Source of the DNA: Antedon mediterranea
Taxonomy: Eukaryota > Animalia > Echinodermata
DNA: 64,000 nucleotides
Direction of reading: 5' to 3'
Assembly (NCBI RefSeq): GCF_964355755.1
Contig: NC_092670.1
Location: 2,346,201 to 2,410,200, forward strand
The notes under the pieces were generated by a model. It was not told the origin of the DNA. It saw only the letters and a program-made list of their open reading frames with translations, and did no database searches. Below, piece by piece: positions 1 through 60,273 of this stretch (the stretch's first letter is position 1; each line of letters starts with the position of its first letter). Both the position numbers and the translations under genes were made by a program.

Positions 1-132
1 TAAAAATGTTAAAAAATTGTACTAAATTCATTAAAATAAATTCATTAATTGACAAATAAAATATCCAATATTATGTTTCTGTATGTAATATATTATTTGA
101 AGGTTTGCATGGCAAAATCAAATGTTGTTATA

Positions 133-311
133 AAGTTTGCAGTACACCATGTATATTTAGTTCTGAAAGAACTGTTGGGTTTCTGTACATTTCGATCAGT
201 ATACTTTGAGTGACATTCACTTCTGAGGACGATAAAAGTATATTGATCGAAACATTGAGAAACCCAACAGTTCTTTTCAGAACTATATATATGTGGTGTA
301 CTGCAAACTTT
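133..311. repeat. ~180-bp hairpin (inverted repeat) with a degenerate hammerhead core; Penelope-like relic
   Basis: aagtttgcagtacacca...gaactgttgggtttct is mirrored by agaaacccaacagttct...tggtgtactgcaaactt. The centre contains CTGAGGA-cgat..atcg-AAA. A paralog lies at ~39756-39945. Confidence 0.6.
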
Positions 312-684
312 CTGTATGTAATTTTTATAGGCCTTTTATTAAGATAATTTATTATAGGATTCTAATTATTTTATCAATGGTAATTAAAATTAATTAAGAA
401 AAGTACATTGTCAGACAATTTAATTTTTAGAAATGAAAGTGGAAAAGGATCTACAGAATATCAACGTTTCCGATGATTTCAGGTCCTGAATTTGCTTCCC
501 TAATGATTCTACGCGGCTTTTCCTTTCTTGATTGACAAGAAGAGTTGTGATAGTGACTTTTCAATTGCCATATATCTTGAAAGAAAACCTTATCAATTAG
601 TAAGAGGAGAATTTGGCACATGCCTCTTAAGATTTTCCTATTTCATTGAGTTTGTTTTGAGCGCAAAGCAACATTTTTGATTAC

Positions 685-948
685 CCTCATCCATTTTGCT
701 TTCTTTTGTTTTAGTTGATTGTGCTGGATTTTCCTTTGACTGTTCTTCTATTTTGTTTTCTTCCACATATTTCGTGGGAGCATTTTCATTGCCAAAAGCC
801 TTTTTTACTGATGCTGTTGCACCTTCTTCTTGTATCATACTATTCTTGTTATCAGAAGCATTTTCTGTTGATGCTGCTGTTGTATTTTGTTTTTCTTTCA
901 CTTGTTTCACCACTTCTCTGGCAACTGCTTCCTCATACATTTCAGAAG
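685..948 (-). CDS. ROCO paralog B, charged insert exon inside the Roc domain
   Basis: ag|CTTCTGAAATG...GATGAGG|gtaatc, phase 1-1. Encodes SEMYEEAVAREVVKQ...SKMDE. Paralog of 40914-41117. Confidence 0.75.
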
Positions 949-1219
949 CTTCAGCATAAAAGAAGTGTAATTTGCTTTTGTATATTATTGTCATGCTTGT
1001 ATATATACACAGTATTATTTTAAGAATGTTACTATCTTTTTTAAATAGGATAAGAATGGAAAAGTCTGGGACAAGGTCTTTGCACTCAAACGCAGGATTG
1101 GCTAGCATGAATAGCTAAAGCAAAAACAAAAACAACCAATCCTGTGCCTCTCTCTCTTTGGTGCTAATTTGGTTACCAATTTTGTATTTTGCATTCTTTT
1201 TTATTCTCATGTTACTTAC

Positions 1220-1323
1220 AAGTTTCTGGTGATTGTTCTTTCAAAATTGTTTCATTATCACCTTGAGTGTACACTGTTCTTGTTTCTGCTATACCATCAG
1301 TTACTTCATGGTTTGGATTAAAA
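1220..1323 (-). CDS. ROCO paralog B, Roc switch-I (G2) exon
   Basis: tag|TTTTAATCCAAAC...GAAACTT|gtaagt. Encodes FNPNHEVTDGIAETRTVYTQ. Paralog of 42309-42412. Confidence 0.8.
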
Positions 1324-1812
1324 CTACAGAAAAAATTAATAAACTAAATAATGGCCATACAGTATTTTTTGTTTTATTGTTTTATTATCATTGTCTGCCT
1401 ATATTTTAACGATTAAATGTAGTGCCCCAATGCAACCAATTGGTTGCAATGGCATTTATGTCATTAGTAAATTCCCTTAAATCCGTAATAATAAAAATGG
1501 CTAAACTGAGAGGAAATTATGTTTTTAAATATGCATTTAAAAATGCATATTGAATCTAAAATTTACACAGATATATACCCCGGGATTGAAGATAGAGTTT
1601 CAACTCAAAACAATCTCATTATACTTTTCATCTCATTTTCTGTAGATTGTTTTAAACAACATTCAAATCAAATAAAAAATAACATTTATTTCCAAAATAG
1701 TGGCATCACCAATAAAGCAAATGCTTGTGTCAGGGCTGCCAATACAAAACAGACAAAAACAAACAAAATATATAAATCACATTTAAATAAATAAATGTCA
1801 AGGTTTTCTTAC

Positions 1813-1972
1813 CGTTTCCTTAGTAAAGAGTTAATAGTAGAAGTTTTTCCTACTCCCTCTAGACCTACAAAAATAACTCTGCCCTGTTTAACTTCAGTTT
1901 TTCCTTCTTTCAGAGCTTCATTAAATGCATTAACTGCTTCTGGTCCTCGAGCCCATATCTCCACAGGTAAGT
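1813..1972 (-). CDS. ROCO paralog B, Roc P-loop exon
   Basis: tag|ACTTACCTGTGGAG...GGAAACG|gtaaga. Encodes LPVEIWARGPEA...RVIFVGLEGVGKTSTINSLL (GxxxxGKT). Confidence 0.85.
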
Positions 1973-2557
1973 CTATATACAAATTAATTAGTATAAAAAT
2001 GAATATTTTATTTCGTTGAAGGGAGAGAATAATTTCATATAATGACCGATTGACAGATTCATTAAATTCAAAGAAAATTAGGACAGTCAGGCTTTTCTCC
2101 TCATTTAATGAATGAATACTTAATAATTAATTATTTGTTTTATTTTATTGTTATAAAGTAAATTGTTACAGTATATGAACTTTAATTTTGTGATCATCAT
2201 CATCAACTTCAACTTCATCTAGGCCAATATAAAAGGATACTACAGCTCACTATGTCGGTCGGTTGGTCGGTTGGTTGTAGGTCGATCGATAAACAATAAC
2301 TTGAGCATGTGACTGCAGCCATCTATATGGCCTTGTTATATTTAACAACACATTTAGGATTGGACATTTAGTGTTTTTACAATGAAAATAATATTCTCCA
2401 TTGAACAAATTAAAACAACAAACAAATTATAACTCAGATTTTGGCTGCACTGAATAAATTATACATGTCTACATGCTCTATATGTTTGTTTTTGGTGGTG
2501 CAAAATATGGCAAAAATATATATGTGTAATAAATGCATTGTGTTCACTGTATTGTAT

Positions 2558-3199
2558 TGTAATATAATGTTGGGTTGTTGAGGTACTAATGAAGGACTCT
2601 GACTCGCTTGACTGTCGTAACACATATATTATTTATTCAGTATAATACTTCAGTACAATATACAACTATAAGTATAGATAAGGAACGGACGTCAATGATT
2701 GATGCTGTCAGTGAGGTGTGAAGTGTGTAGGTCTGCTGTGAGGTGTGTGCTCCGTGAGGTGGCTGTAAGGTGTGTGTTCCGTGGCGTGGTTGTAAGATGT
2801 GTGTTCCGTGGCGTGGTTGTAAGATGTGTCTGGGCCCTTCTGAAACTTGGGAGTATATTGGCTCAGTTCATTTGCATATGTCACTACGTAATATTAGAGG
2901 GTAACGATTGGTCCTAAGTTGGTCCAGGGGTGTTTAAGTGGGAGTGATTAACGGTATAATAAGGTATTTCTGTGATGGATGACACTGTCAAATCTGTACT
3001 TAAATAGTGTCGATCACTCGATGGGAAAGTCACAAAATTAAGCTAAGTGTTTTCTTTAGGGACTCTATTATAAACTAAATGGTCATTAAAACATCTGGAC
3101 AAACTCTCCTTCGGACTTTCTGGGTCAAGTTTGTGAACCTATTTAAATTCCGATACAAAGGTCAATTTCTTAAATATAACAGTATATCATTATATCACA
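2558..3199 (-). repeat. 3' LTR (642 bp)
   Basis: Matches 4808-5449 with no difference seen by eye. Contains an internal 27-bp tandem repeat (gtgtgttccgtggcgtggttgtaagat) and minus-strand AATAAA at 2632-2637. Confidence 0.93.
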
Positions 3200-3217
3200 T
3201 CCCTCTGTTTCCCTTTT
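3200..3217 (-). promoter_or_regulatory. Polypurine tract
   Basis: Minus strand AAAAGGGAAACAGAGGGA lies immediately before TGTGATAT of the 3' LTR. Confidence 0.85.
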
Positions 3218-3648
3218 TTTTTTTCTAATCTATTTAACATATAAAAATGGTTATAATAGTGGCATGCAAAATTAAAGTTATATAAAAGAAAAAAAACATT
3301 ATACATATATGCAAAAATTGAGTTAGCCAAAACCATTGACTCTGAAGTGTAACCTTATCACTTTCACTCTCTCTCTTCTCTCTCTTAAAAAAATGAAATT
3401 AAAAATGAATTTAGTATAAAAATTCCGGAATTTATATAAAATTTGAAACAAAAAATGTATATAAAAAAAACAAAAGTGTTCTTCAAGATCGACATAATTG
3501 TGGGTCCGTTGCTTTGGAGGCATGCTACACTCGGATTACCGAAATATAAACATCACAACGGTTGGGTTTCCCTAAAAAACATCGGTCAAGAAGTCGACTC
3601 TCGTTAATTATTTTAAATAGAAAAAAATTTATAAAGGATAAATTGAAA

Positions 3649-4533
3649 TCAATCGGTGGGTTTATATAATAATCGATAAAAACGGAATGCACTCCACGGT
3701 ATGTCCAACATGTAGGTAGTGGTGTAAGGGATCTCATTCAAATATACCATACCGCAATTCAAGCATTGGTATTTCTTGTTGAGGGATATTTGTTGGCAAT
3801 TTTTGTGAAAAAATGTTCCGCAGCATTTGTTGATTGTACAGTCAGTATGAAAGTTTTTAATTTCGGGGTTACATTGACAAATTTGGCAGGGGGTATCTTG
3901 GTATTTATTTTCCAGGTACTGCATGTTACGAATGTGCGAATATAGTTTTTTCTTATATTTAGTTACAACATATCCAAATGGTGAGTGTTCGCTAGGTTTT
4001 AATTCGTCTTGGGGTATGATGCCTGTTTGTTGTCGGACTCTTGAAAAAAATGCTGTGCATTGTGGGGCTTTGATGTCTTTTGTAATTGCTAAGAGCAGGA
4101 GGGTCATAGAATAAATATGTTGTCTGTGAAATTCATGTGTGTTTGGTATACAAGTGGCGATGCCGTCTAGATTAATGGAAAGGTCGATTGTGGAAAAGTC
4201 AAGTAGGGCTGGTTCACTCTTATGCTTCCAAATGTAGTCTATAATGGGGGAGGACATTTTGTCGAAACAACATAAATAACTGTCAATGTGTAAAAGGGTA
4301 TTTAATTTGAGGTTAGTCAGTTGGTCTACTGGACGGATGTCGCAAAGGAATAATAAAACTCTTTTCAAGGAATCTAAAGTAAATGGCATCATTTTGGTAA
4401 TATGGAGAATTACGTTTTGTTCGCTTTGGTAAAGGATTATCTTCTTTATAAGGGCACATTCTGTGGACAGGGGCGTCATTTGAATTTTGTGTTTTAAGCA
4501 TAACTGTGTAACGTCAAGCTTTTCGGATTCCAT
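3649..4533 (-). CDS. 294-aa protein with a C-terminal C4HC3 RING-variant/PHD-like zinc finger
   Basis: Intact, intronless ORF with AAAATGG start context. C-terminal motif CQIC...CCGTFFHKNC...CLNC. No RT, integrase, protease or CCHC-gag motifs. TATAAATA ~200 bp upstream (4733-4740, minus). Confidence 0.8.
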   Translation of the reverse strand: MESEKLDVTQLCLKHKIQMTPLSTECALIKKIILYQSEQNVILHITKMMPFTLDSLKRVLLFLCDIRPVDQLTNLKLNTLLHIDSYLCCFDKMSSPIIDYIWKHKSEPALLDFSTIDLSINLDGIATCIPNTHEFHRQHIYSMTLLLLAITKDIKAPQCTAFFSRVRQQTGIIPQDELKPSEHSPFGYVVTKYKKKLYSHIRNMQYLENKYQDTPCQICQCNPEIKNFHTDCTINKCCGTFFHKNCQQISLNKKYQCLNCGMVYLNEIPYTTTYMLDIPWSAFRFYRLLYKPTD

Positions 4534-4789
4534 TTTAGGGGGAAATTTGGAATTGACTAAAATTAAGATAAATAAAATTAAAATGTATTTAAAATAAACA
4601 ATATTAAACTAAATAAACGATATAAAACTCAAACAATAAAATTTCAAGTTCAACTATTATAACAATCTCACAAAAGTAAATTAACTTATAATTCGACAGT
4701 AAATACTGTATATTTGATACGCTCGTGCGACTTATTTATAGTCTGCCCATCCGGTTGTTTATATATATAGCTCGTAATTGACTCTACTC

Positions 4790-4807
4790 CGCCCGGGTCT
4801 TCCACCA
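4790..4807 (-). promoter_or_regulatory. Primer binding site
   Basis: TGGTGGAAGACCCGGGCG directly follows the 5' LTR and is complementary to a tRNA 3' end ...UCCACCA (Ala-like; identity uncertain). Confidence 0.8.
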
Positions 4808-5449
4808 TGTAATATAATGTTGGGTTGTTGAGGTACTAATGAAGGACTCTGACTCGCTTGACTGTCGTAACACATATATTATTTATTCAGTATAATACTT
4901 CAGTACAATATACAACTATAAGTATAGATAAGGAACGGACGTCAATGATTGATGCTGTCAGTGAGGTGTGAAGTGTGTAGGTCTGCTGTGAGGTGTGTGC
5001 TCCGTGAGGTGGCTGTAAGGTGTGTGTTCCGTGGCGTGGTTGTAAGATGTGTGTTCCGTGGCGTGGTTGTAAGATGTGTCTGGGCCCTTCTGAAACTTGG
5101 GAGTATATTGGCTCAGTTCATTTGCATATGTCACTACGTAATATTAGAGGGTAACGATTGGTCCTAAGTTGGTCCAGGGGTGTTTAAGTGGGAGTGATTA
5201 ACGGTATAATAAGGTATTTCTGTGATGGATGACACTGTCAAATCTGTACTTAAATAGTGTCGATCACTCGATGGGAAAGTCACAAAATTAAGCTAAGTGT
5301 TTTCTTTAGGGACTCTATTATAAACTAAATGGTCATTAAAACATCTGGACAAACTCTCCTTCGGACTTTCTGGGTCAAGTTTGTGAACCTATTTAAATTC
5401 CGATACAAAGGTCAATTTCTTAAATATAACAGTATATCATTATATCACA
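4808..5449 (-). repeat. 5' LTR (642 bp)
   Basis: Direct repeat of 2558-3199, offset 2250. Confidence 0.93.
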
Positions 5450-5909
5450 GTATTATTCTTTCCTTTTTGGTAATGAATGTAAACAATTAAATTGGTCAAA
5501 AACTTAACAAAATAAAAATGCTTTACATAATTTCATTTTAGCTGTCAAATAGAAGAAAGCATGCTCCAAGTACAACACTCATAGATCCACCACAGAGGGA
5601 CACATTTCTTTAAAATATTGAAATTCTTTCAAATATTGGATTGTATATAAGGACAGTGACTACTTGTTTTGGTCTCTATGACCAAATGTTTTTTTTTTAT
5701 TTGTTTAGTCTATGTGCATATGTTAATGTGTGATTTTGGTCAAAATAAATGTTGACTTGAAATGAAATACATCCCTTGCTCATGCCACTGCTCCTCGGAA
5801 CTGTGCTTTTCAATATAATAATATTTTTATTACAATACATTGCCTGTTAGATTTAAATTTAGTATGTCAAGTATCAACAGTCTGAAAATAATAAATATAA
5901 CATAAATAA

Positions 5910-7945
5910 TCACAATAACTTACTATCAATATTGCTTTGCCCTGGTAATTGTAATCCTCCTCCATCGTGGAAAAACGATATGTTTCTAATTGAACACTTT
6001 TCGGAAACATGGCGGATGCTGTCAGCTGATAGATTGCAATCCATCGTAAGCGTCCTCAGCTTAGGAGACATATTGAGTAATGAACTCAGTGAAGTAACAT
6101 CAAGGTTGTGAAGGTTACTACCAGAGATATCGAGATGATATAATTGTAATTGAACTTGTTTGAGGGAACATTCTGAGACAAAGTCATAAAATACATCACG
6201 TGATAGATTATGAATCCAAACACCGTCACATCTATCTTGAATGCCTAAAATGTGTGCAATAACTCTTCCCTTTCGCTCAAATGCCATCTTACTACAAAAG
6301 TAACTGATACCAAAATCATCATATTGCATACAATACAATTGCATAATTAGACGTATGAAATGCCCGTCACATTGTACACCTGGACTAATGTAATCAATGA
6401 ACATTCTTATGGAGGTAGATATATCATCCAAATGATTATTTATTTCTAAATCTTTACTTGTCATGTAATTTATTAATTCATTCATAACAGCATCTTTATG
6501 TTGTTTTTTAACAACGTTTAAATAACTTGGCAGATAGCAATATGTTGACAAACGATTTGTAACCCAGTGCTTCAGGAAACCACCAGCTTTATCACCAAGG
6601 AAACCAATTGCAAATTCTCTTGCTCTGTGTAAATGATCACTCTCTCGTATCACCTCCCACTCATCATCATCCAATGGTGTTAGTAATCGTCTTACATCTT
6701 CTGTATTCTCCTTACCTTCACTTTCACATAATTTGCACAAGTAAAATCCCACCAATGACTCTACTATCAACTTGTGAGGAGGCATGAAAATATTTTCAAA
6801 GTTAGATTTTGAAATTGGTGCTTCTTCATAAACAAATCCGAGTTTCACGGACATATCAACCAAATCTTTTTTCGTATGTTTATCATTCAAATCTCTCATG
6901 TTTATTGAAAGTTGATTCACTTTCAAGCGATCATACATACATTTTCCTAGCAATATCATAGCATTTACATACTTTGCTGGTGGGTTTTCAAATTTAGAAA
7001 GCTTTGCGAATTGTTCATGTTTGTTGAACTGATTTAAAATGTTACGAAATATTTCTTTAAAAAGTTCAGCTTTATCTGTAGGAAGGTTTTGGCTGTCTTG
7101 CCATAGCAAACAGATTGAACAAAGCAGCATTGGATTTTTGCACATTGAATATACGTCTTCATGTTTACGTTCTCGCCTATACCTATGCTGAGTATCGCCT
7201 ATGAAAATATCCAATTCCTTTTTTAAGGATTTTCCCAATTGTGGTTCTTCAAAATATTCGAAGTGTTTGTCAATATACTTTCCTATGCTCTCGTTGTTAA
7301 ATCCCTTAACTCTTACATGTACGTTACTCTCTTTTACAAATTCATCTATGTTTTCTGATCGTGAAGTAAGTATCACGGTACTTTCTTCTAGGTTTTTCTT
7401 TTTGAACAGACTAATTACGCTTGGATTATTAAATCTCAATTCGTCTAACCCATCTAGTAGCAACACCACTTTATCATCATGGGTTATTAGAAAATCTTGA
7501 ATTAACCGTGGGTCCTCTGGGAGATCTGTATCTAAATTAAAATCTTCCATATCAATTTGCTTTACAATTTGATCGAAAATGTTGTCATCCTTTTCTAAAT
7601 CCCTTACACTTAAAAGAAATACAATTTTACCTTCAAATAATTTAATTGATTGAGTAGCCGTAGCCCAGGTGTATGATAAATGCCTTAATATGGTAGTTTT
7701 ACCTATCCCACCCTCTCCATCTATAAGAGCTCTACATCCAGGTGTGGAGCTGATTACATCTACCACTTCTGTTAATGTTGTTGGTTTGCTTCCTTTATTC
7801 TTTTTAGCTTCTTTACGTAGTTCCATATCGGTAAACATCTGTGAAATGTCAACATTGTATCTCTCACGCATTATTGCTGGTGTAAATCTACTGGCCTGAC
7901 TGCACAGTCTCTTTTGTCTTTGAAGCAGATATTCTTCTATCTTTT
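5910..7945 (-). CDS. NLR-type NACHT NTPase + helical/winged-helix + ~2 LRR (large single exon)
   Basis: Walker A GEGGIGKTT, Walker B VVLLLDGLDEL, sensor-1 VILTSR, CKNPMLL (GxP-equivalent), WHD PHKLIVESLVGFY, LRR-like LYHLDISGSNL / LRTLTMDCNL. Phase-1 acceptor tttag|AAAAG at 7945. Ends either at stop 5910 or at donor GTAAGT (exon end 5924). Confidence 0.92.
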
Positions 7946-14419: not shown

Positions 14420-14863
14420 CACATTAGACAAAGAACAATAATTCTAAACCGCCCGGTGATATACTGAAATTTAATTAATTAATTTGAAACGATATAGATG
14501 AGGAAATCTGTGAGAATGAGAAAAAGTTGCCCCAACTGAGACTCGAACTCGGACCGCCTGCTTGATATGCAGTTGTCCTAACCATTAAACCACTGGGGCT
14601 TTCATGGTATTGTTCAAACTCGATTGGATAGCGACTCTATAACATTCTCGGCGTGGTATGGCGGAACAGCACTAGTCCTCAGTTGTACGCACGCGCACCA
14701 GAGATCAAATTGATACGCCCTCATCTAATCAGTATTTTTGTTCACGTATATATATAAACACATTAGGCAAAGAACAGTAATTCTAAACCGCCCGGTGATA
14801 TACTGAAATTGAATTAATTAATTTTAAACGATATAGATGAGGAAATCTGTGAGAATGAGAAAA
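14420..14863 (-). mobile_element. tRNA-containing element flanked by ~105-bp direct repeats
   Basis: acacattag...ctgtgagaatgagaaaaa occurs at 14420-14525 and 14759-14863, with a tRNA-like sequence between the copies. Confidence 0.65.
14529..14599 (-). pseudogene. tRNA-derived sequence (Asp-like, loop ATC)
   Basis: GCCCCAG TGGTTTAATGGTTAGGAC...GTTCGAGTC...TTGGGGC folds as a cloverleaf with A/B boxes. It has mismatches in the anticodon and T stems and a non-canonical loop. Confidence 0.6.
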
Positions 14864-18058: not shown

Positions 18059-18156
18059 CTGTAAAAAAAGTGGTTTAAACAGTTTTGTTTTTTCCTATAG
18101 ACCTATCTCAAGTGTGATATACTGTAAAACTTTTTTTTTCTTCTTTCTAATCCATA

Positions 18157-21100
18157 TACTCTAGTAGCCAGATCAACTTTCGTATGCACTTTGAGGTCCA
18201 GAGAATTTGACTTCAGAAATTGGTTTAGGGTGGTCAAACAATCATTTTTGGCTTGGTTACACATTTTGAAAATGTGGTGAAAGGTCAAAAGGTCAGGGTG
18301 AAAGGTCATAAGACCAAACACCAATATGTCCTTAAATCTGAACAACCACTGGTCACAGCGAAGTAATTTTGGTCTCAAATTGATCAGAAGGTATACATTT
18401 ATATTCAGTCTAATGGGACATTTTAGTTTAAAATGACCGGAAATGCCATTTCTGACCTTTGACCCACAACCCAGGGCATATATTTATCTCCGTAACTACT
18501 GGTCGTAGACACTTGAATTTGGTTTTAAATTGTTCGAAATATATATTTTGTTATATGAAAAACATTTTGAAAAATGTTACAAAACGTCAAAGGGTCAGGG
18601 TCAAGGGTTATATAAACAAATAAATAAAGGTACTTGTATCTCGGCAACCACTGGTCGCAGCAAGTCAATTTTGGTCTCAAAATGTTCAGAATGCATGCAT
18701 TCATATTCCGTCTAATGGGGCATTTTAGTAAAAAATGATCAGAAATGCCATTTCTGACCTTTGACCCACATACCAGGGCATCTTCATATCTCTGTAAGTA
18801 CTGGTCGTAGAAACTTAAATTTGGTATCAAATTGTTTGAAATATACATATTTACATTCATTGTAATAGAAAATGTGGTTAAAAGATGAACAGAAAATACT
18901 ATTACTAATGTTTCAAACAAAAAACATATCTCTACACAACTTTTCACAATATGATACTTTAAATTGTTTCAATTTCAAGTAGGCCTACTAGTTATTGCTG
19001 TCCACGAGAACATTTTGATATAAACGTCAAGCTCAACAGTTCTTTTCAGAATGCTAGAAGTAACTTGCCATGTGTATCCGATTAAACGCCCCGGGCATTT
19101 ATTGTTCAAAAGGGTTTTTAGGGGGAGGAGAGGCATCTTTATTTGGGGTATAATATGGTAACATGTATAATCAAATAAATACCACCTAGATGTAAAAAAA
19201 TACAGCACAATTAATATAAAAAAATGATAACATTATGTCAAAATGCTTGGTAAATTGTAGATTATGGTAATTAATGAAATGTGTTGTGATACAATTATTT
19301 TGTAAATGCATGTGGCGGAGCGTTTATTCCACATGATGTTCTATTGGAGGGAATGGAGGCTTTTATTCAAAGCGGGTGTTAATTCGAATAAATACTCGAG
19401 CTCAACAGTTAAGAATGCTAGAAGTAACTTACTATAGTTACCCGAATAAAAGGTCCGGGTATTTAGTTATTCAGGGAAGGCGTTTATTTTGTTTGGGTGT
19501 AATAATGGTAACATGTATAATCAAATAAATACACCCCAGATAAAAAAAAAAAAAAATTAATATAATAAGAATAATAACTGGATTAAACCTCATTCTATCC
19601 TGTTGCAAGTACAATCATGTAATAAAAGGTATCACAGACAACTATAATAGACCAATTCATTGTCATTATTCCGTAACACTGTTGCATAATATTTTTGAAT
19701 GTTACCGACAAAACTTATAATATGTATAAGTTTTGTCGGTGTATATTATACACGTCTGTTCCCAGTGTAGATAATAAAACAATATATGTTTCTGGAGATT
19801 TATTATCAATACCACTAGAAACTTTGACATGTTTTAGGTACTGAATTCATTGATAATAAAAGCATCAGAAGTTATCATGATAAAATCATACTACAACACT
19901 GTACTACAGTACACAAGGGTGTTTTCAGGAAAGCTGGACATATTGTACAATAGTAATGAAGCTATGTATTGGCATTTAAAAATATGCAAAAGATTGTTGT
20001 CAAATTGTAGTCACAAACAAACAGATGATAGAATGAAGATCCATTATGAGTGCAATTGTGTCAGGATAATGATGTGTCATTGTTTTATATCATTATACTG
20101 GCACCTGGAAGAGAAGATCCATTTAATGTTATCTATGACAGTGTCACTTTTATTCTAAAAGACAGAAACATTTCGTTAAAAAGCATAAAGAAAACAACGA
20201 ATCATGTAAAGTACCTTTTATCAGTTGAGAAACGAATTATAATTATTAAAATTAGAGTATTTATTCGAATTAACACTGCACCCGCTTTGAATAAAAGCCT
20301 CTCTCAAATAAACGCCACCATTCCCTCTAATAGAACACCATGTGGAATACGCCCGCCACATGCATTTACACAATAATTGTATCACAACACATTACATTAA
20401 CTACCATAATCTACAATTTACCAAGCATTTTTTTCACTTTTTGATATTAATTGTGCTGTATTTTTTTTTTACATCTAGGTGGTATTTATTTGATTATACA
20501 TATTACCATATTATACCACAAATAAAGATGCCTCCCCTGCCCCTAAAAACCCCTTTGAACAATAAATGCCCGGGGAGTTTAATCGGATACACATGGCAAG
20601 TTACTTCTAGCATTCTGAAAAGAACTGTTGAGCTTGACGTTTCTATCAATGTTCTTGGGGTCAGCAATAACTAGTACTTGAAATTGAAACAATTTAAGTA
20701 TCAGTTATTGCATAACATTACTGTCTAAGGATAAGTTATGTAGAGATATGTTTTTTGTTTGAAACATTAGTAATAGTATTTCTGTTCATTTTTTAACCAC
20801 ATTTTCTATTAAAATGAATGTAAATATGTATATTTCGAACAATTTGATACCAAATTTAAGTTTCTACGACCAGTACTTACAGAGATATGAAGATGCCATG
20901 ATATGTGGGTCAAAGGTCAGAAATGGCATTTCTGATAATTTTTGACTGAAATGTCCCATTAGATTGAATATGAAAGCATGCCTTCTGAACATTTTGAGAC
21001 TAAAATTGACTTGCTGCGACGAGTGGTTGCCGAGATACAAGTATCTATTTTTATTTGTTCATATAACCTCTGACCTTGACCCTTTGACCTTTTGTAACAT

Positions 21101-21516
21101 TTTTAAAAATGTGCTACAAATAATAAATATTTATTTCAAACAATTTAAGACCAAATTTAAGTGTCTACGATCAGTAGTTACGGAGATACATACATGCCCT
21201 GAGGTGTGGGCCAAAGGTCAGAAATGGCATTTCCGGTCATTTTTGACTAAAATGTCCCATTAGACTGAATATAAATGTATACCTTCTGATCAATTTGAGA
21301 CCAAAATTACTTCGCTGTGACCAGTAGTTGTTGAGATTTAAGGACATATTGGTGTTTGGTCTTATGACCTTTCACCCTGACCTTTTGACCTTTCGCCACA
21401 TTTTCAAAATGTGTAACCAAGCCAAAAATGATTGTTTGACCACCCTAAACTAATTTCTGAAGTCAAATTCTCTGGACCTCAAAGTGCATACGAAAGTTGA
21501 TCTAGCTACTAGAGTA
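18157..21516. repeat. 3.4-kb inverted duplication (~1.24-kb arms, ~0.85-kb spacer) of TE-derived sequence
   Basis: 18157-19397 is the reverse complement of 20254-21516. The outer end TAGTAG..AGATCAACTTTCGTATGCAC also occurs at 62541. Confidence 0.9.
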
Positions 21517-21775
21517 ATAGGAATACTATATTTATTTTTCTGATGTACATGATCCCAAAGATGTTTGTGCACTATAATTATTGATCAGTATTAGAAGAAA
21601 TGTTATAAAATATTAAAGACATTTTTCCTTTAATTTTGGACGTTTTGTTAGAATATTGCGTATTAATGTATTACTTCAAAAATATTAAACTAGATCATTT
21701 CCTGTCTTAAATGTATGTTATTTGGTTAATTATGATGAAAAGAGAAAAAACAATGCACTTAAGCTAAGTAGCTAG

Positions 21776-27300: not shown

Positions 27301-30300
27301 CGTCTCGCGTCACTACTCGACTCTCTCTATGCATTGCTATCGTCGCGTTGTTGGCTGTTTGTTGAGAGAACCATCATCCACAAGATGTATCCATACAATA
27401 TGAATATTTATGAGCTAACTCAGGTCAAGGGTTAAATTAAACCGGAACACGTTTGTCTTCCAGACAAATAGCTTCCGGTTGGTTAATTTTTGCTTTAAAT
27501 TACGATTTTCTCGAGTAAAACATTTTTTTTTTCGATCCAATTTCAGTTCAAAGTGAATAACTTTTATGTGCAATTAAAATGGCCTATTCAACAAAAATAT
27601 TTAAAAAAAAAATGTTTTCAGGGGGACAATACATCTTTAAAGAAATATATCATAAAACTATGAAAAACAATAATCAAGCGCAAAAACGGGCTTTCTAGGC
27701 TGCGTACGAGCGAAGTGCGCAATAGCGCGCGCGCAACGCAAATTTTTTTGAAAAATGTGAAATGCTTAAAATGTCCTGAAACGTGTAGAAAGTTGATTAG
27801 AAATTGATTTTGAGCATTTTTAACTTTCAAAGCGCGCGTACGCGCGATTTGACCAATGTTCAAAATTTTGCTGATGATACAGGAAGATGACCCTTGACAT
27901 GAAGCATACGTGTGTTAAGTGGTATTTAAAAATAGCTATTGGTTTTCAAGTTATAGTCAATCTAAGAATTTTAGAAAATCGTGCGTAGTTACGCTACGCG
28001 ACCATATTTTCATTAAACCAAAGTTTGTTGCACAACTACATATATACGTGCATCTGCTGGCCAAGTTACAACATAACTGCTACCGCCGTTTTTGAGATCT
28101 GCGTGACACAAAAATTGAGCAGAAAAAATGAAATTTGTGACAATAACAATAGGCTATCGCTCTACAGAGAGCGATAGCCTAAAAAGTAAAAAAAGGCAGT
28201 CAATCGAACTAGTTAAAACTAGAATTTTGTTTGAAAACATAAACATTAAGGTTGATACTATAAAAAGCTGACAACGTTACCCCTAGGCTAAACAAACAGA
28301 TGCAGCAGTAACCAACCTTCTTTTAATTGTTCTGTAAATACAATGACTTTTCCTTCTTTATGTTGATAGACATGTCTTGTACACAGGTCATTGCTGAGTT
28401 TGACAAGTTTTTGTTGTCTTAATGCATCGACCATTTTAGTTATCTGGTTTTCACTATTTCTATCTCTCCAGCCAACCAGTGCATCCATCATGCTATCTTT
28501 AATGTCCTTGTTATTATCTCTGATATTGTTAAGATCAAACCATTGAATTCCAAGTCGCACTGTTAGCCTTGTCCATCTTGAGTCTAACTTATCGCAGATA
28601 AATAACATGTCTTGATCATCAAAGGAATCTAGATAGTGAATATAGAATTGGGCAAGTAATAATGAGGCTATTTTCATTTTTTAGGCAAATTGCCAAGGAT
28701 AACCACAAGTGAATTCATTCACTCACTATCCTTCTCAAAGGTGGAAATCCCATTCACAAGACAAACATATACACAAGATGCTCTACATAGACATTGACAA
28801 AGACTTATTATTACAAGTCTTTGGGAGTGGAGTTACAAATTGTCATGAGAAAAAATCCTGACATATGACAGGACTTGAACCCTTTTAATAATGATACAGC
28901 TCAAAAACTTCATAAGCATGGTGCTGATAATATCCCATAATAGGTACACAAATGATTGTGGGTGGGTGCTATAAAATGTCATTTCCCCTTCATAATATTC
29001 ATTCATTCATTCATTCATTCATTCATTCAATCTTTTATTTCGGAAACTCTGGTCCATAGAAAGTAAATTACATATAAATGAAATAAATAAATAATGAAAT
29101 AAACAAAATTACTACTACTCATCTCAGGATGGCATTCCATCTGGAGAGTATCTTCGACTTAACTAAGATGTTGCTTGTATCCGTAGGCAAGATAATTTAC
29201 TTACGTTTGCCTCTCTCCAGGTGTATAAATGGGTACCCGGTTAGATCAAGAGACAACTTTGCGCTGATTACTAGCTGCATTATGGTAGTATGTTTCCATA
29301 CGTGTTTGATCCAAAAAAATGACTGAAGTAATAATGTTCAGCGCTTAGAGGTTTCACAACATTAGGCGCTATATAAATCCAGGATATTATTATTATATAT
29401 AAATGTTCATTAGAATCCAATTAAACTGTTACAGTCATTGTCACTGTCTGTCCTTGTTTGTCCAACCATCTTTTTTAGTTGTTTTAACAAGTTTTCTGAC
29501 GTGCCATCAAACTACCACTATGATAACCCTGTAAAATTAGTATTAGGGTCTGTTCTATACAACAACCTAATTTAACATCGGTTGGTGTATAGTATAAACA
29601 TAACAGAAAGAGAAAGGGATTTAAAAGGGTTAAAATTCATGTATGAACAGTTTGTGTAAAGTAAGAAAGGTGTTGAGAAAGCCAAATATGATTTCGTCCT
29701 GCAGTGGAAAGAAATAGGTTAAGAAGAAGAATAAGAAGAGATGTGGAATTAGTTTATGGTGGGAATAATAATTTGTATTGTACCTGCTTGTTTTTTTTCC
29801 TCATCTCTTTTGTCCTCCATTTCCCTTAACTGCAAATGTTTTCTATTACTATTAGCAAGATCATCTCGTCCATGTTGCACTAAGGCTCTACAAAATTCTT
29901 CAAGTTGAATCAGGTTTCTGTTGTTGGTCCTCCAATACATCATCATTTCTTCTGCAGATTTATTTGTTGTCATTTCACTACCAAACCTATTTTTCACTTC
30001 ACACCAACCAAGCCCCAAACGAACACCAAATTGTTTCCAGCCAAGGATTTTCTCTGACACTTCTTTAATAGTTTGATCATCCACATAACCTACATAATGA
30101 TTTGTATCAAATATGCATAACTTGAAAATAGACAAATTTATTTTATATAAAATAAAGATATATTTATAATTTAAAAAATTGTTAAACTACTCAAATTCAC
30201 CATTTTTGGATTTTATACCCTAGAAATGTTAAATTTAAAACAGTTTACCTTCATTGTGAGACTTTGATGACAGGGCTAAAAGGTAAATAAACAAATGTAT

Positions 30301-33300
30301 CAACCAAATGTGCACATATTTATTTATTTGTTTATTATTTATTTATGTTATTGGTCACATGTAAACATAGCTTGTGTTACAATACATATTTATGCAAAAC
30401 ATTGCCTAAAATTTCACTTATCAGAAAAACAATGAAATTCATCTGATTAATATAAATTTTACATTTTACTTAAATGCTAACATATATATACTGTACAATT
30501 GTATGTAACATAATATATACAACAATATGTATACAATTTTGTTGTTTTCATATTTATATTACACATACCTTCTTCCTGAGACTGTTGGTTAGCTATAAAA
30601 ATAATAATAATAATAGATTTAATTGCATATTGTTATACTATGAGTATTAAATATAAGAGAAAGGCATGAATTTCAGATATAAAATTTGGTTAAATAATAC
30701 TGATAGATAAATTAAAAACATGCAGCAGAAATAACACCGAAAAAAACATGACGTAGGTATGCCTATAGGATGGATTCATTTTTGATATGCATGAAATTAA
30801 AAATCGAATATAGAAATGCATGATAGACATTTTTTGGCCGCACCTTTCAATGTGTGAATCTGATACTGCCAGGGTATTTCTTTTGTTATGTCGTTTGCCT
30901 TATTGCGTCCACTTTTCAAAACGAAACGAGCTACCGTATCAAGTTTACCACCACCCCGGTGCCTGGGACGAAATGACACAACACGGATCCCGAGACAACA
31001 TTTCAAACCTTATATACAGAAGGGCACAATAGTCACGGTCCAAGCACTGACACGAATCTACAATGTTCCAGAATGGAGGTGCTCTCCACAATTCTGCTTG
31101 GCCTACGAAGAGGAGACTGGGCAGCCTCAATAGATCTCAAGGATGCGTACTTCCACGTACACATCTACGAGGCTGATCGACAGGGTGAAATTCGGGCGCT
31201 GGCAGCATTTCTGCATCGACACGGCATCCGAGTACACATGTACCTCGACGATTGGTGGGTTGTAGCCCAGTCCAGCTACTTAAATTTCGTCCTTGACGCA
31301 ACAGTAGGTTTCTTAATAAATCGGGACAAGTCGTGCCTGCTGCCGACCATGGAATAAGGAATAGAAGGATATGCATCAGTTTGAGATCAAAGCTTTCATG
31401 ACTCTAGCCAACAGAGCGTGGACCGCCCACAATGTTACAAAATAAACACAGTTTAATTAGCCGTCGTTAACAACGAAACGTGCCTAATGTATTGTTTACT
31501 GCACATGCTCAACAACCTTTAACCTTGTTGGCTATGCTTTCGCGCGCTCTTATTTTGGTAGCGTGATTAATATTTTATATATTTAGCGCTAGCTGCTATG
31601 GCGACGAATTTTATATAACTTTTCTGAATCCGAATTAAAAGGTCTCCCAGAAATATTATAAGAGTATTTAATAAATGTAATTACAAGATTAAATACAAAT
31701 TGTTTGTAAATTGTAGTACCCTTTGGGTTTAAAAAAAAATTATTTTGCCATGTTCGAAATCTGCCGCGATTGATCTACGCTAATGTTTTTATGACCTTAA
31801 AGTAGCATTTTATGACCTGTAGTATAGCCCTAAATCTGAGACAACAACTAGTTGTTTTCTCAGCCTACATGTAAAATTACAAAATCAGCAAGGATACTAG
31901 GCCCAGGCCTTCTAGGTTTACTAGTAAACCCTATGATTTGCGGGACATTGATATAGGCCTAGGTAGGCCTATTGGTAGGCTAATCGTAAGTGTAGTAGCT
32001 ACAACGTGTAATCATGATCTATATACTCATCGTTGTCTACTTCGTGTGGGAATAATAATACAGTAATAAAAGACAAGGTAGGCCTACTTTTATGCTTCGT
32101 TTGTTCATGGTTAAGTTTGCCTTGCGTCCACTTTTCAAAACGAAACGAGCGCTAGAGAGTAGTAGAGTTAGTGGTGACGTATCGCTACTATACATAGACA
32201 GCCAATCCCGGATCAGGGATCGCAGTTTTCACTCAATTAGGCCCAGTGATTGGATGTGATGTGGGTGACATAACCACTAGTCAATCACCAGGCACTACAA
32301 TTTAAATATAATCACATCGATAATTAAAGAGATTTATGAAGAAACCACTGCTTAGCCATATATTAAAAACACGATTGTTTTATGTGTGAACACCGGCCAC
32401 GCTAACAACATACATGGTCAAATGCATAATTTAATATTCTATAGATTAACGCACTTTTTAATGGCAGGAGGTGGAAGGCCAATATGATAATTCAAATATA
32501 AAAATTGCATATTTTATTAATATTACCAACTACTTAAAATTACCGGTCGTAAGAAAGTGAACTTTTCGTTGTTCAGCAATATATTGTTGTTGTCAATTAA
32601 TCATCGACGCAGACATGTCAATAGAACAATCAGACTGCGCATACGATTTCTACATGGCTACGTTTTGATCTCAGCGTTCTATAGAGGGCCGCGGTTAGAG
32701 ACACAGAGTTCAATGAGCGTGTTTGTTTGATTGGTAGCAGTGCTTTAGTATAGGCAAGCGTGTTGGAAAATCGTTTGATGTCACTGTCGATGCATATCCT
32801 TCTATTCTTTAATCTATGTGCCGACTCAGTACCTGTAATACCTTGGAGCCCGGATCGACCTGAACATATGCATGACTCGCCTGACCGAAGTGCGAGTAGC
32901 CTCGGCGCAGGCAGCTCTGACCGGCCTGCTCGCGAGTTTAGCCCCAACGGTATTCAACTGGATCGAGCAGGACTCTGGGCTTCCTCAGCAGCTTCGTCGA
33001 CCTACTTCCGTTCTGCCGGTTTAGAATAAGACCGTTGCAACTTCATCTTCTGGCGTTATATCGCCCCACTTCAGACAAAGTGTTGCCAATGTCCCCATTC
33101 GTTGCGACACACAAAAACACTGCCGGCCGTTCATTCCTGAGGTTCACGTCAGACATACGAATTACGACCGATGCCTCCGAAATTGGATGGAAAGGGCACT
33201 CGGATATACAGCACACTTCCGGCTTCTGGTGCAGTGCAGTGCACGCTAATGGCCCTCGTATCACTCAGTACGATTTTTAGATTTATAAAATGTAAAAATG

Positions 33301-39300: not shown

Positions 39301-42300
39301 ATACTGTATATTCTCAGCACAATAGATAGTTATATATTTATATGCTAGTAACCATGCAGGCATCAATTCCAGCATTTATCTTCCACGGCTGTGAGAAAAG
39401 GACTTCATTGAATAAAATTTAACCATTTTACCCGCTGCATCACGTGATAAATTGGTTGTCCTCCGAAATCCCAGATTTTCATCACAAATTTGTCGCTAGT
39501 CGTCTGGTCGTCGCTCAACTCAAACTCTATTAAATCTCCAATGTTTGAAGGAATCTTTGTCTGGTCATCACTTTCTTCTTTCTCAAACTCTGTCTTTGAA
39601 GGAATCTTTGTCTGGAGTTTTTCTTGCTCTATATTTAAAAATATTATACTAAATTCATTAAAATAAATTCATTAGTTGACAAATATATCCAATATTATGT
39701 TTTTGTATGTAATATATTATTTGAAGGTTTGCATGGCGAGATCAAATGTTTATATAAAGTTTGCAGTACACCATGTATATTTAGTTCTGGGTTTCTCTAC
39801 ATTTCGATCAGTATACTTTGAGTGACATTCTCACTCTTGAGGACGATCAAAGTATATTGATCGAAACATCGAGAAACTCAACAGTTCTCTACGTCTCTAT
39901 CAATATAATATAATTAATTTGATGACATATATACCGCAAACTTTCTGTATGTACTTTTTATAGGCTTTTTATTAGGATAATTTATTATAGGATTCTAATT
40001 ATTTTATCAATGGTAATTAAAAAAATTAATAATTAATGTAGAAAAGTACATTGTCAGACAATTTAATTTTTAGAAATGAAAGTGAAAAGGGTAAAGGAAC
40101 GATAGAATATCAACGTTTCCGATGATTTCAGGTCCTGGATTTGCTTTCCTAATAATTCTAGGCTGCTTTTCGTTTCCTGATTGACAAGAAGAGTTGTGAT
40201 AGTGACTTTTCAATTGCCATATATCTTGAAAAAAAACCTTGTCAATTAGTAAGAGGAGAATTTAGCACATGCCTCTTAAGATGTTCCTCATTCATTGAGT
40301 TTGTTTTGAGAATAATAACAAATATATTTTCTGGTTAAAACATGAGCAGAGGTGCCTTGAAAATAGTAGGTCTAGTTATTTCGAGACAGAGAGGCCCATA
40401 GTTTTAACAAAACAAACAAAAAATTATAGTTTTGTATATTTGTTTTGTATTATGGATCAAACATTTGAAGACACCAACTGTTCTAAAGTAAACTTCTACT
40501 CAATTTAACCACCTCTTCCATCTTTTTATTTTATCCGTCAACGGTTATTTTTATTTCAATATGACATGAATACAGAAAAGATTTACATGATAGACAATAA
40601 AGCAACTAGAATCATATTGAGGATCTATACTAGAAGAATAAATTATTCTTGTCACTTCTAAGACCCTTTTCAAACTAAAATAATATAGTTAACTAAGTAA
40701 GCATATAAAGAAAAAGAGACAATAAATCAAATATCGAATAAATGAAAAAAATCAAATAATATTAATAATAAATCGAATATCAAAGCTCAGGCCACAAGTC
40801 AGCCCATGTAAAATTCAGTGCTTGTTTTGGTAGAGCAGACAGTGAGATATTAAGTGTGAAATGTAATAATAATATGCCCTGCACTTGAAATTCCTATTAA
40901 CATTTTTTATTACCCTCATCCATTTTGCTTTCTTCTGTTTTAGTTGATTGTGCTGAATTTTCCTTTGACTGTTCTTCTATTCTGTCTTCTTTCACATGCT
41001 TCATGGGAGCATTTTCATAATTGCCAGAAGCCTGTTTTGTAGATGCTGTTGTATTTTGTTTTACTTTCATTTGTTTCACCACTTCTCTAGCAATTGTTTT
41101 GTCATACATTTTAGAAGCTTTAAAAAAAGTGTAATTTGTTTTTGTATATTATTGTTGTTTTGCTTGTACACTATGAATATGTTAATTATTTATTAAAATG
41201 TTAAAAAGGAAGAAACACACATTTAATTGATTCATTTGCCATGTCAGCTCAGGAGTCGCAAAAGCAGAAAACCCACTGTCCCCTGAAGGACGTGCGGCTC
41301 CGTACAACAAACCAACAATTTATGCAATATAGTACAAAGCTTTCAAAACAAAACATACATCACACACATTTGAATAATGAATATATCCATGATATTACAG
41401 AATAAATCCAGTTCTGTGTTATAAATAAATAATTTAGGTAAAAAGAAGCAAGTTATCAATTTATTTCAAATTTGTTTGAATTGAAGTAGTAATCAAGAAA
41501 TTGTATGTAAAACAAATTATATAAATAACATCCATAAAACAAGACAATACAACTACATAATCAGATTAAATAAATAAATATTAAACAAGAATCATACATT
41601 GTCTCTAAAACAACACAGGATTTAACATGGGATTTTTAAAGCAATAAAAGAGAAAAAAAATTACTATTTAATCACGGTGGATTGATTTGAATATTAGCCA
41701 CTTGTATGAACTAATTTTCAAAGTTTTCAATTATCTATGTTATTTTCTACGATTGTAATCCAGTTTTATTTTATTAATTTATTTTTATTTATTTAAGTTT
41801 GTCTCCAAACTTATTTTGGCCTCCTTCTGCACTCTCGTATTTTTCTACTCTTGTAATTTTGTTCCTTAGCTATAAATTTTAAATGTGTGTCCAGAAAAGC
41901 AGTTATTAGATTTAGTTTAAAATTTAGTTTCATCAAAATTTTTGTAGTTTTTACTTGTTTTATATCTATGGTTATTAACATTTTCCTTTTGTTTACCATT
42001 ACAGCATAAATAATAGAATAATCACTGATTATGCAATACACCGGCCTGGCTTACCTTTTCTGTACTTGTGACATATATATGAAGGTTAATGTATTTTTTT
42101 AAATCTTGTAAAATCAGTTATTATATTTTATAAATAATGATTTTACTGCAGCCAGAAAAATATGGGTTTGTCACAAAAGAAATATTTGCGTACTTGTGTC
42201 AATAAATGTTGGTTGATTTTGACAGTATACTTGGAATTATATGTGCTACAAACAATTTTTTAAACATCTATGGAACCATTATTTCACGCATCTTAAGATG

Positions 42301-52900: not shown

Positions 52901-53019
52901 ATTTCCAGTAACTTTGTTTTGGCATCTCCACACTATACTCTACCAAACTGCTATATTGAATAATTTGTATCCAGTCTGGTAACATCCCACCCCTTTTTCT
53001 CCCCTTAGGGACTGGACTA
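49994..53019. mobile_element. Academ-like non-autonomous DNA transposon with long imperfect TIRs
   Basis: Termini TAGTCC(G/A)GTCCCTAAGGGGA inverted and 50070-50600 mirrored at 52430-52930. Inserted in an A-run (probable 3-bp AAA TSD). The superfamily call is an inference. Confidence 0.65.
51040..51650 (+). mobile_element. Degenerate RTE-like LINE RT fragment
   Basis: Remnant motifs KVKEALRQMQENKAP, DYQKAFDSI and LRQGDT. Confidence 0.6.
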
Positions 53020-55340: not shown

Positions 55341-56180
55341 ATGATAGAATCACTACTTAAAGAAAATTGCGAACCAGATGTTTTAAAAACTTACATTATC
55401 AAGGCGGAGGAACAGTTCAGAAAAGTTGAGTTAAAACACTCTGAACTGATTGATGTAATTGAAGACCAGGGAGAATTTGAAACGGAAGAGAAATGGATGT
55501 TAGAATGTGAGATGGATTTCCTTCAAAAGTTGGTATGTGCAAAACGGGAGATTACCCTGCGCCACTCACAATCTACAGTCGATGTACCATTTTCAACTCC
55601 AACAACTCCTCTTCAAACATCAGCCTCAACGCAGCCTGCTGGTACGGTTGCCTCGCCGCCTGCATTCAGTTCACCTACACCTCGACCTGCTATGGCAAGG
55701 TCAACGCCTACCATGGCAAAGATGAAGTATCCTACATTTAATGGCAACATCCGGGATTACAAAAGATTTATAGAATTATTTACACATTGTGCAACTAATC
55801 TAACTGAGATTGAATGTTTCTACCAGCTAACTGAATCTATGATTAACAGCAAAGAAAGAAACATGGTTAAAGGATGTATCGATGTGGCTAGAGCTTGGGA
55901 AGTGTTAGATGAACGCTACGGAGACAAAGACAGAGTGGTTGATAGTCTGTTGAAGGATCTAGAGAATTTAAAGTCCTATGAAAGTAAGGACAAGATCAAC
56001 ATTCCAGCCATGAGTTTTGTCCAAACCCTTCAAACGTTTGAAACCAGCCAATTATTGTTACTTGAGAAAGCTATGCCCATGACTGAAACTGAATCATCTT
56101 CATCGTCAAAGAAGGCTTCAAATGCTGCTGTAGTGTCATCTGCAGAAGGATACAAGTCAGACTACAATAAAAATCCCTAG
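55341..56180 (+). mobile_element. BEL/Pao gag remnant (DUF1759-like)
   Basis: KMKYPTFNGNIRDYKRF...AWEVLDERYGDKDRVVDSLLKDL. Truncated, with no pol. Confidence 0.75.
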
Positions 56181-60105: not shown

Positions 60106-60273
60106 CTAATTTTAGTACAGTATTACAACATCCGTTTTGATGAATATAAAATTAAAAAGCCTTTTATCAATAATATAATTTGTTTCCCTAAAACCATTCT
60201 ACTACAGACCTATATCAAGTTATTTTTTGGATTTTTGCTGTATTTATGAATGAGCTTATACTGCTTTTTTTAC

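What the first reader, a model, noticed from the sequence alone, without database searches (positions are those of the whole stretch)
2558..5449. Young LTR element whose only cargo is a RING/PHD-like zinc-finger gene
Seen: all cis elements of an LTR retrotransposon are intact (apparently identical 642-bp LTRs, TG..CA ends, PBS, PPT, GTAT TSD). The 1.6-kb interior holds one intact, intronless, sense-oriented 294-aa ORF with no gag/pol/env motifs, a C4HC3-spaced finger and its own TATA box. Known: TRIM/LARD non-autonomous elements are usually non-coding, and RING E3 ligases are common viral immune-antagonist genes. Inference: this is a recently active satellite or accessory-segment retroelement spreading a putative E3 ligase or anti-silencing factor, here inserted inside an immune locus.
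Basis: partly seen in the sequence, partly recalled or inferred. Interest (0 to 1): 0.8.

Follow-up and report, generated by a model that had tools for sequence, protein, structure and literature searches.

The report
Helper-dependent retrotransposon carrying orphan zinc-finger gene
A recently inserted, apparently multi-copy jumping gene, likely from a feather star, has no recognisable coat or copying genes and carries one zinc-finger gene with no known relatives, which is likely an old regulatory accessory gene of this element family rather than a proven weapon against host defences.

Summary
The element is real: identical 642-bp LTRs, PBS, PPT, 4-bp TSD, and an exact empty site in two organisms. 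Contig depth suggests about 17-18 ORF-bearing copies in the source organism and 4-6 in a relative, with the same leader-ORF-trailer layout. It is therefore a pol-less family, not a one-off deletion. The 294-aa ORF has no homologue in 1.84 billion proteins. It has a predicted helical N-half and a C4HC3 finger whose spacing fits variant RINGs better than PHD; E3 activity is untested. Divergent subfamilies show purifying selection (12 synonymous of 23, omega about 0.3-0.4, p 0.006-0.02), but the closest lineage looks near-neutral (5 of 18). ORF-less and ORF-broken derivatives also occur, some at equal or higher depth, so the gene seems dispensable in cis. The internal TATA box is chance-level. 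Best reading: a non-autonomous, probably Gypsy-mobilised LTR family that keeps an old accessory gene acting in trans. Rivals are an unrecognisable Gag (as in Bhikhari or TR-GAG) and a captured host gene. The E3 or anti-silencing role is possible but unsupported. New variant of a known kind.

The parts
2554..2557 (.). Target-site duplication, left copy (GTAT)
   Evidence: empty-site joint skips element + 4 bases
2558..3199 (-). 3' LTR, 642 bp; AATAAA at 2632-2637; 27-bp x3.5 tandem repeat at 2735-2829
3200..3225 (-). Polypurine tract abutting the 3' LTR
3226..3648 (-). AT-rich non-coding trailer (28% GC); no poly(A) signal of its own
3649..4533 (-). Single intronless ORF, 294 aa, no detectable homologue
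3754..3888 (-). C4HC3 zinc-finger motif, residues 216-260 (C-x2-C-x12-C-x4/5-C-x5/4-H-x2-C-x10-C-x2-C)
   Evidence: 0 of 5000 shuffles; weak RING likeness
3901..4533 (-). Predicted all-helical N-terminal region, residues 1-211 (low confidence, pLDDT about 50)
4534..4789 (-). AT-rich leader; TATA-like words at about 4759-4769 and 4734-4740 are chance-level
4790..4807 (-). PBS-like stretch starting TGG directly after the 5' LTR; cognate tRNA not identified
   Evidence: no self-complementary match in the element
4808..5449 (-). 5' LTR, identical to the 3' LTR
5450..5453 (.). Target-site duplication, right copy (GTAT)
5910..7871 (-). Neighbour, not part of the element: NACHT-LRR (NLR-like) ORF whose best homologues are crinoid
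1815..1972 (-). Neighbour, not part of the element: P-loop GTPase (Roc-like) exon
   Evidence: below Pfam cut-offs

Best explanation
This is a recently inserted LTR retrotransposon without recognisable gag or pol, likely copied by the enzymes of a related, probably Gypsy-type, helper element, and its single gene is likely an old accessory gene of the family whose zinc-finger protein is predicted to act in trans as a regulator or adaptor rather than as a structural part. Inferred cycle: transcription from the 5' LTR, poly(A) addition in the 3' LTR, translation of the ORF from that genomic RNA, packaging by helper Gag, tRNA priming at the PBS, plus-strand priming at the PPT, and integration with a 4-bp TSD. 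The ORF was constrained while the subfamilies diverged but seems dispensable in cis, so copies that break or lose it spread as well. Within this reading I put a variant-RING ubiquitin/SUMO-pathway adaptor a little ahead of a PHD-type chromatin reader; neither is shown.
For: Shown: cis elements and identical LTRs; exact empty site in X1 and X6. Estimated from contig depth: interior contigs 5080-5190 against about 290 for single-haplotype flanks in X1 (17-18 copies); 370-484 against 77.5 in X6 (about 5-6). Contigs in X6 cross the leader-ORF junction and the ORF-trailer junction. Selection: 19 of 43 listed differences are synonymous (omega 0.39-0.46, p 0.002-0.011); the two divergent contigs give 12 of 23 (omega 0.32-0.39, p 0.006-0.022). 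Two X6 contigs stop matching at 4535, two bases before the ATG. Dispensable in cis: an ORF-less joint 3456>4791 at depth 461 in X1; X6 contigs with a frameshift (depth 471) or a premature stop (depth 921); an LTR contig at 651 against 55 for the ORF in X5. Eight-ligand finger and no CCHC knuckle. Family-specific extra ORFs are known in LTR elements (PMC5408684 abstract).
Against: No helper was found; no genome is held. The ORF sits in the gag position, directly after PBS and leader, with about 210 predicted helical residues before a Cys/His domain, which is the layout of a Gag. The closest lineage is near-neutral (5 of 18; the deep-versus-shallow contrast is itself not significant, Fisher p 0.20), and an ORF staying open through about 35 substitutions has a chance of about 0.2 without selection. 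The finger scores far below Pfam RING cut-offs and, by recalled RING hallmarks, keeps only the hydrophobic residue of the first C-x-I-C pair. Depth is a rough proxy for copy number, 36 difference rows were not shown, and X1 may be the sample the window came from.
Confidence: 0.5

Rival explanations
1. The ORF is a highly diverged Gag and the element is an animal counterpart of TR-GAG or Bhikhari: it would make its own particle and borrow only Pol.
For: Gag position and sense orientation; predicted all-helical 1-211 followed by a Cys/His-rich domain; Bik-1's single uncharacterised ORF proved to be Gag by structure prediction (PMC12067270 section 5); TR-GAGs are under 4 kb with one ORF (PMC4350172 abstract). 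A protein that prefers its own RNA would explain ORF retention (inference).
Against: No Gag Pfam family, no CCHC knuckle, no homologue among 1.84 billion representatives although Gags usually have many (own knowledge); an eight-ligand C4HC3 finger is not a known nucleocapsid motif (recalled).
Confidence: 0.2
2. The ORF is a host mRNA captured by LTR-mediated retroposition and carried passively; the synonymous excess reflects the parent gene family and the cargo is now decaying.
For: Intronless ORF between LTR parts; such chimeras re-transpose as non-autonomous elements (PMC5131818 abstract and passages); near-neutral recent lineage; broken derivatives at high depth.
Against: No parent among the protein collections, which include crinoid proteomes; the divergent relatives are high-depth contigs, not single-copy; third-position GC (0.41) differs from the neighbouring host ORF (0.29).
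Confidence: 0.17
3. One reading: a satellite segment actively selected to spread an E3 ligase or anti-silencing factor that protects itself and its helper.
For: Same pol-less layout at multi-copy depth in two organisms with no stop among the listed differences of the main lineage; C4HC3 also occurs in a variant RING with reported E3 activity (Nse1, PMC3226483 passages).
Against: No selection detected in the pol-less lineage itself; broken derivatives reach equal or higher depth; sub-threshold RING score; TATA box at chance level.
Confidence: 0.13

Closest known systems
BHIKHARI-1/-2 of zebrafish (PMC12067270; section 5 and passages read)
   Same: Young, polymorphic, pol-less LTR family with one long ORF that was long uncharacterised; needs a partner element.
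   Different: Bik-1's 617-aa ORF is a predicted Gag with a capsid domain; here no capsid was detected and the 294-aa protein ends in a C4HC3 finger.
TR-GAG elements of plants (PMC4350172; abstract read)
   Same: Under 4 kb, all LTR cis features, a single ORF, no pol.
   Different: TR-GAG ORFs are recognisable Gag; this one is not, and the host is an animal.
TRIMs such as cestode ta-TRIM (PMC4558846; passages read)
   Same: Non-autonomous, keep LTR, PBS and PPT; 4-bp TSD; mobilised by a helper. An ORF-less 1.56-kb derivative of this family fits that kind.
   Different: TRIMs lack most or all coding sequence; this element holds an intact ORF with a record of purifying selection.
Non-env extra ORFs of LTR retrotransposons (bdelloid rotifer ORF3s, PMC5408684 abstract; plant additional ORFs, PMC7264820 and PMC11963269 passages)
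   Same: Family-specific accessory genes carried by LTR elements.
   Different: Those accompany gag-pol; none of the passages seen names a RING or PHD accessory ORF; here the ORF is the only gene.
LTR-mediated retrocopies, including maize Bs1 (PMC5131818; abstract and passages read)
   Same: Intronless coding cargo between LTRs that can re-transpose.
   Different: They have an identifiable parental host gene; none was found here.
C4HC3 variant RING of Nse1 (PMC3226483; passages read)
   Same: C4HC3 ligand order in a domain at the C-terminal end of a protein.
   Different: No sequence similarity was detected; activity here is untested.

Membership tests
Non-autonomous LTR retrotransposon | Two direct LTRs with TG..CA ends | tested here: met
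   642 bp, 0 mismatches
Non-autonomous LTR retrotransposon | PBS next to the 5' LTR and PPT next to the 3' LTR | tested here: met
   Position and TGG start shown; the cognate tRNA was not identified
Non-autonomous LTR retrotransposon | 4-6 bp TSD, confirmed by an empty site | tested here: met
   Joint skips 2896 = 2892+4 in X1 and X6
Non-autonomous LTR retrotransposon | No RT, RNase H or integrase coding capacity | tested here: met
   Only one ORF over 100 codons in the 1608-bp interior; no pol family
Non-autonomous LTR retrotransposon | An autonomous partner sharing LTR ends and PBS | not testable with these tools
   No genome held; motif and protein scans empty
Ty3/Gypsy superfamily | RT/integrase phylogeny and domain order | not testable with these tools
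   No pol. TG..CA with a 4-bp TSD is compatible (4-bp preference recalled) and excludes Troyka (CG..CG, 3 bp)
TRIM | Non-coding interior | tested here: not met
   294-codon ORF against a shuffle maximum of 170
TR-GAG / Bhikhari-type gag-only element | Short LTR element with a single ORF and no pol | tested here: met
   2892 bp, one ORF
TR-GAG / Bhikhari-type gag-only element | The ORF encodes Gag (capsid fold) | tested here: inconclusive
   No Pfam Gag or CCHC knuckle; models are single-sequence with pLDDT about 50, too weak to decide
RING / variant-RING E3 ligase | Eight zinc ligands in RING order | tested here: inconclusive
   C4HC3 present; C3HC4, RING-H2 and RING-CH patterns not matched; second half aligns without gaps to the Pirh2 RING-H2 at E 0.71
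RING / variant-RING E3 ligase | Match to a curated RING profile | tested here: not met
   zf-RING_2 10.2 bits, E 0.97, cut-off 27.3
RING / variant-RING E3 ligase | E2 binding and ubiquitin transfer | not testable with these tools
   Needs a bench assay
PHD finger | C4HC3 order with 12-21 residues between ligands 6 and 7 (spacing recalled) | tested here: not met
   Order met, but the gap is 10 residues; no PHD Pfam match at E up to 10
LTR-mediated retrocopy | Identifiable intron-bearing parental host gene | tested here: inconclusive
   None in protein searches; the host genome could not be searched

The most novel reading that the evidence does not exclude
A two-segment retroelement in crinoids: a pol-less, gag-less satellite LTR family kept in several species because its only gene, an orphan variant-RING protein, disarms host silencing or innate sensing for itself and for the helper that copies it, while ORF-less cheaters ride along.
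Probability: 0.15. Interest if true: 0.8.

Novelty: new variant of a known kind. Interest (0 to 1): 0.5.

Why it matters
Pol-less LTR elements in animals are usually described as non-coding or gag-only. A family whose only gene is a constrained, orphan zinc-finger protein would add a third layout and give a compact, young, polymorphic system for asking what accessory genes of invertebrate LTR elements do and why a non-autonomous element keeps a trans-acting gene. If the protein proves to be Gag, it extends capsid diversity to a form that current profiles miss. If it is a silencing or immune antagonist, it would be a rare animal example. Ten paper searches showed no such element, but Repbase and subscription journals were not searchable.

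Tried and rejected
No genome for a copy search. Word-indexed protein search: 0 of 227 candidates at near length and 0 of 742 at longer length. Full phmmer: 1 hit, P0001, a 31-residue Cys-rich repeat match that lacks the finger's later ligands; rejected as chance. Atlas unavailable. PDB sequence searches gave nothing significant (best E 0.12 and 0.28). NCBIfam 0 of 2; Rfam 0. LTR-PBS motif: 0 matches in metagenome contigs. ORF relatives: 0 of 6 and 0 of 52 pattern hits confirmed in viral and metagenome contigs. Fold searches on two low-confidence models: no Foldseek hit at E 0.001 or better in PDB or BFVD; best VIA Z 6.6 (rmsd 3.7, 96 aligned) and 7.2 (rmsd 4.8, 138 aligned), generic helical repeats; no capsid was listed, which does not exclude one. 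Two giant-virus RING proteins at E 0.6-3 were not counted as evidence. No RNA holder listed; X5 is only guessed to be RNA. X10 and X13 laid 0 contigs on the ORF, no proof of absence. No likeness to the window's BEL-type gag. Self-priming PBS: no complementary match. The bacterial promoter scan does not apply. A NACHT-Roc fusion gene around the element: 0 of 117 homologues hold the exon. Earlier notes: no look-alike by sequence or place. No supplements were read; element lists in the supplements of PMC13524379 could bear on the helper.

Full report
Observation. The element spans 2558-5449 on the minus strand. Its LTRs are 642 bp with no mismatch, end TG..CA and are flanked by GTAT on both sides; a TGG-starting stretch follows the 5' LTR at once and a purine tract precedes the 3' LTR. 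Zero differences in 642 sites bounds LTR divergence below about 0.5%. The 1608-bp interior is a 274-bp leader, an 885-bp ORF and a 449-bp trailer. The ORF far exceeds chance (longest of 1000 shuffles 170 codons) and holds a C4HC3 motif at residues 216-260 (0 of 5000 shuffles). The claimed internal TATA box is not distinguishable from chance (47% of shuffled leaders). The only AATAAA in the LTR is at position 563, and the trailer has no such signal, so the ORF is most simply read from the LTR-to-LTR RNA (inference).

Host and site. The neighbouring ORF 5910-7871 is a NACHT protein whose 26 best longer homologues are from two feather-star genera, so the host is likely a crinoid. The element lies between this ORF and a GTPase-like exon at 1815-1972. 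Splice phases would allow one gene, but 0 of 117 homologues hold the exon. 'Next to an NLR-like gene' is shown; 'in its intron' is not.

Is it a family? No genome is held, so I used assembled sequencing runs. Of 16 listed runs, 5 hold at least half of the words, all organism A; 4 were laid on 1800-6200 and 3 on the ORF, X6 in both. In X1 a contig crosses the insertion junction with no difference (depth 297) and another joins the flanks, skipping 2896 bases (depth 286): the insertion looks heterozygous, and the 4-bp TSD is confirmed. X1 may be the window's own sample. The same empty site is in X6, organism B (depth 77.5). Interior contigs in X1 have depth 5080-5190, about 17-18 times one haplotype, while the flanks stay near 290, so the other copies do not share these flanks. 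In X6 overlapping contigs at depth 300-484 cover all 30 bins of the ORF at about 4% difference, with one in-frame 3-base gap, and cross both ORF junctions; no single contig spans the ORF. Low-depth fragments are in X11, organism D; X10 and X13 laid nothing. The tool warns that depth is not copy number, so these counts are rough, and distinct insertion sites were not seen directly.

Derivatives. X1 holds a joint from the PBS straight to the trailer (3456>4791, depth 461), an ORF-less version of about 1.56 kb, and a 1032-base contig that shares only the leader. X6 holds a divergent contig with a 1-base gap that stops before the finger (depth 471) and another with a premature stop near codon 77 (depth 921). 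Two X6 contigs leave the ORF at different places (3902 and 4378) into the same sequence, compared by eye, which suggests nested deletions of a relative with extra internal DNA. In X5 one LTR contig has depth 651 against 55 for the ORF. The ORF therefore seems dispensable for copying in cis.

Selection. I classed 43 differences one codon at a time: all 40 rows shown (36 more were not shown) and 3. Nineteen are synonymous against 23-27% expected (omega 0.39-0.46, p 0.002-0.011). The two divergent contigs give 12 of 23 (omega 0.32-0.39, p 0.006-0.022); the closest lineage gives 5 of 18 (omega 0.8-1.0, p 0.4-0.6); 2 further synonymous differences were not assigned to either group. The contrast between the groups is not significant (Fisher p 0.20), and staying open through about 35 substitutions has a chance of about 0.2 without selection. 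The counts are crude: unpolarised and uncorrected for multiple hits. None of the 43 touches a predicted zinc ligand. Reading: a real protein gene constrained in the family's past; current selection in the pol-less lineage is not shown.

The protein. No homologue was found: 0 of 227 and 0 of 742 candidates, one rejected 31-residue hit among 1.84 billion representatives, no Pfam or NCBIfam family above cut-off. Single-sequence models have pLDDT about 50 and show eleven helices, ten of them in residues 1-211; five fold searches gave no clear match. The finger's second half aligns without gaps to the Pirh2 RING-H2 (E 0.71) and scores 10.2 bits on zf-RING_2 (cut-off 27.3). The 10-residue gap between ligands 6 and 7 is shorter than the usual PHD spacing (recalled), and C4HC3 also occurs in the variant RING of Nse1 (PMC3226483 passages). 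Of the usual E2-contact positions (recalled) only the first hydrophobic one is kept. A zinc finger is likely; an E3 ligase is only possible.

Mechanism. Shown: cis anatomy, recent insertion, empty site. Estimated: copy number and presence in related organisms. Inferred: mobilisation by a helper, probably Gypsy-type (4-bp TSD, recalled; Troyka excluded by its ends, PMC12440569 section 14); translation from the genomic RNA; a trans-acting regulatory role. I give 0.5 to an inherited accessory gene, 0.2 to an unrecognised Gag (gag position, helical region then Cys/His domain, the Bik-1 precedent in PMC12067270 section 5), 0.17 to a captured host gene (PMC5131818 abstract and passages) and 0.13 to an actively selected E3 or anti-silencing satellite.

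Comparison and novelty. It works like TR-GAG, Bhikhari and TRIM elements in relying on a helper. It fails TRIM membership (coding interior), and gag-only membership is undecided. Papers seen: abstracts or passages of PMC5408684, PMC11963269, PMC5131818, PMC3118150, PMC13524379, PMC4350172, PMC7264820, PMC3226483 and PMC4558846; one named section each of PMC12067270 and PMC12440569; no supplements. Ten searches listed no pol-less LTR element with a lone RING or PHD gene; Repbase was not searchable. Unchecked notes of this scan describe pol-less fungal LTR elements with other orphan ORFs, so the layout may recur. Verdict: a real, young, multi-species family with an orphan zinc-finger gene; new variant of a known kind; interest 0.5.

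Noticed in passing
window 9-1974 and 39635-43209: The GTPase-like exon and its flanking stretches have a paralogue at 78-89% identity about 41 kb away: a tandem gene duplication.
   Followed up: partly
window 5910-7871: The NACHT ORF ends after only one or two leucine-rich repeats, whereas its crinoid homologues carry long arrays; a GT donor lies at 5923, so the gene is truncated or continues in unseen exons.
   Followed up: partly
window 2240-2337: A short, very high-copy repeat 220 bp from the element, with many loose ends in all four runs; MITE- or SINE-like.
   Followed up: no
window 30864-33277: Fragmented reading frames with reverse transcriptase- and RNase H-like motifs (motifs recalled), possibly a decayed DIRS-type element.
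   Followed up: no
window 55341-56180: ORF with DUF1759, a BEL/Pao-type gag fragment; no likeness to the element's ORF.
   Followed up: partly
window 18148-21525, 50051-52951, 53226-54929: Three elements with long, internally repetitive terminal inverted repeats; foldback-like DNA transposons.
   Followed up: no
window 28288-28677 and 60215-60853: A death-domain exon and a frame matching the N-terminal part of a crinoid NACHT protein: further innate-immune gene pieces.
   Followed up: no
window 14528-14599: A tRNA-Asp-like sequence with the unusual anticodon ATC; likely a pseudogene or SINE head.
   Followed up: no
window 4622-4794 (X1 record 4): A 1032-base contig shares only the element's leader; a candidate for a related element with a different interior, perhaps the helper.
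   Followed up: no
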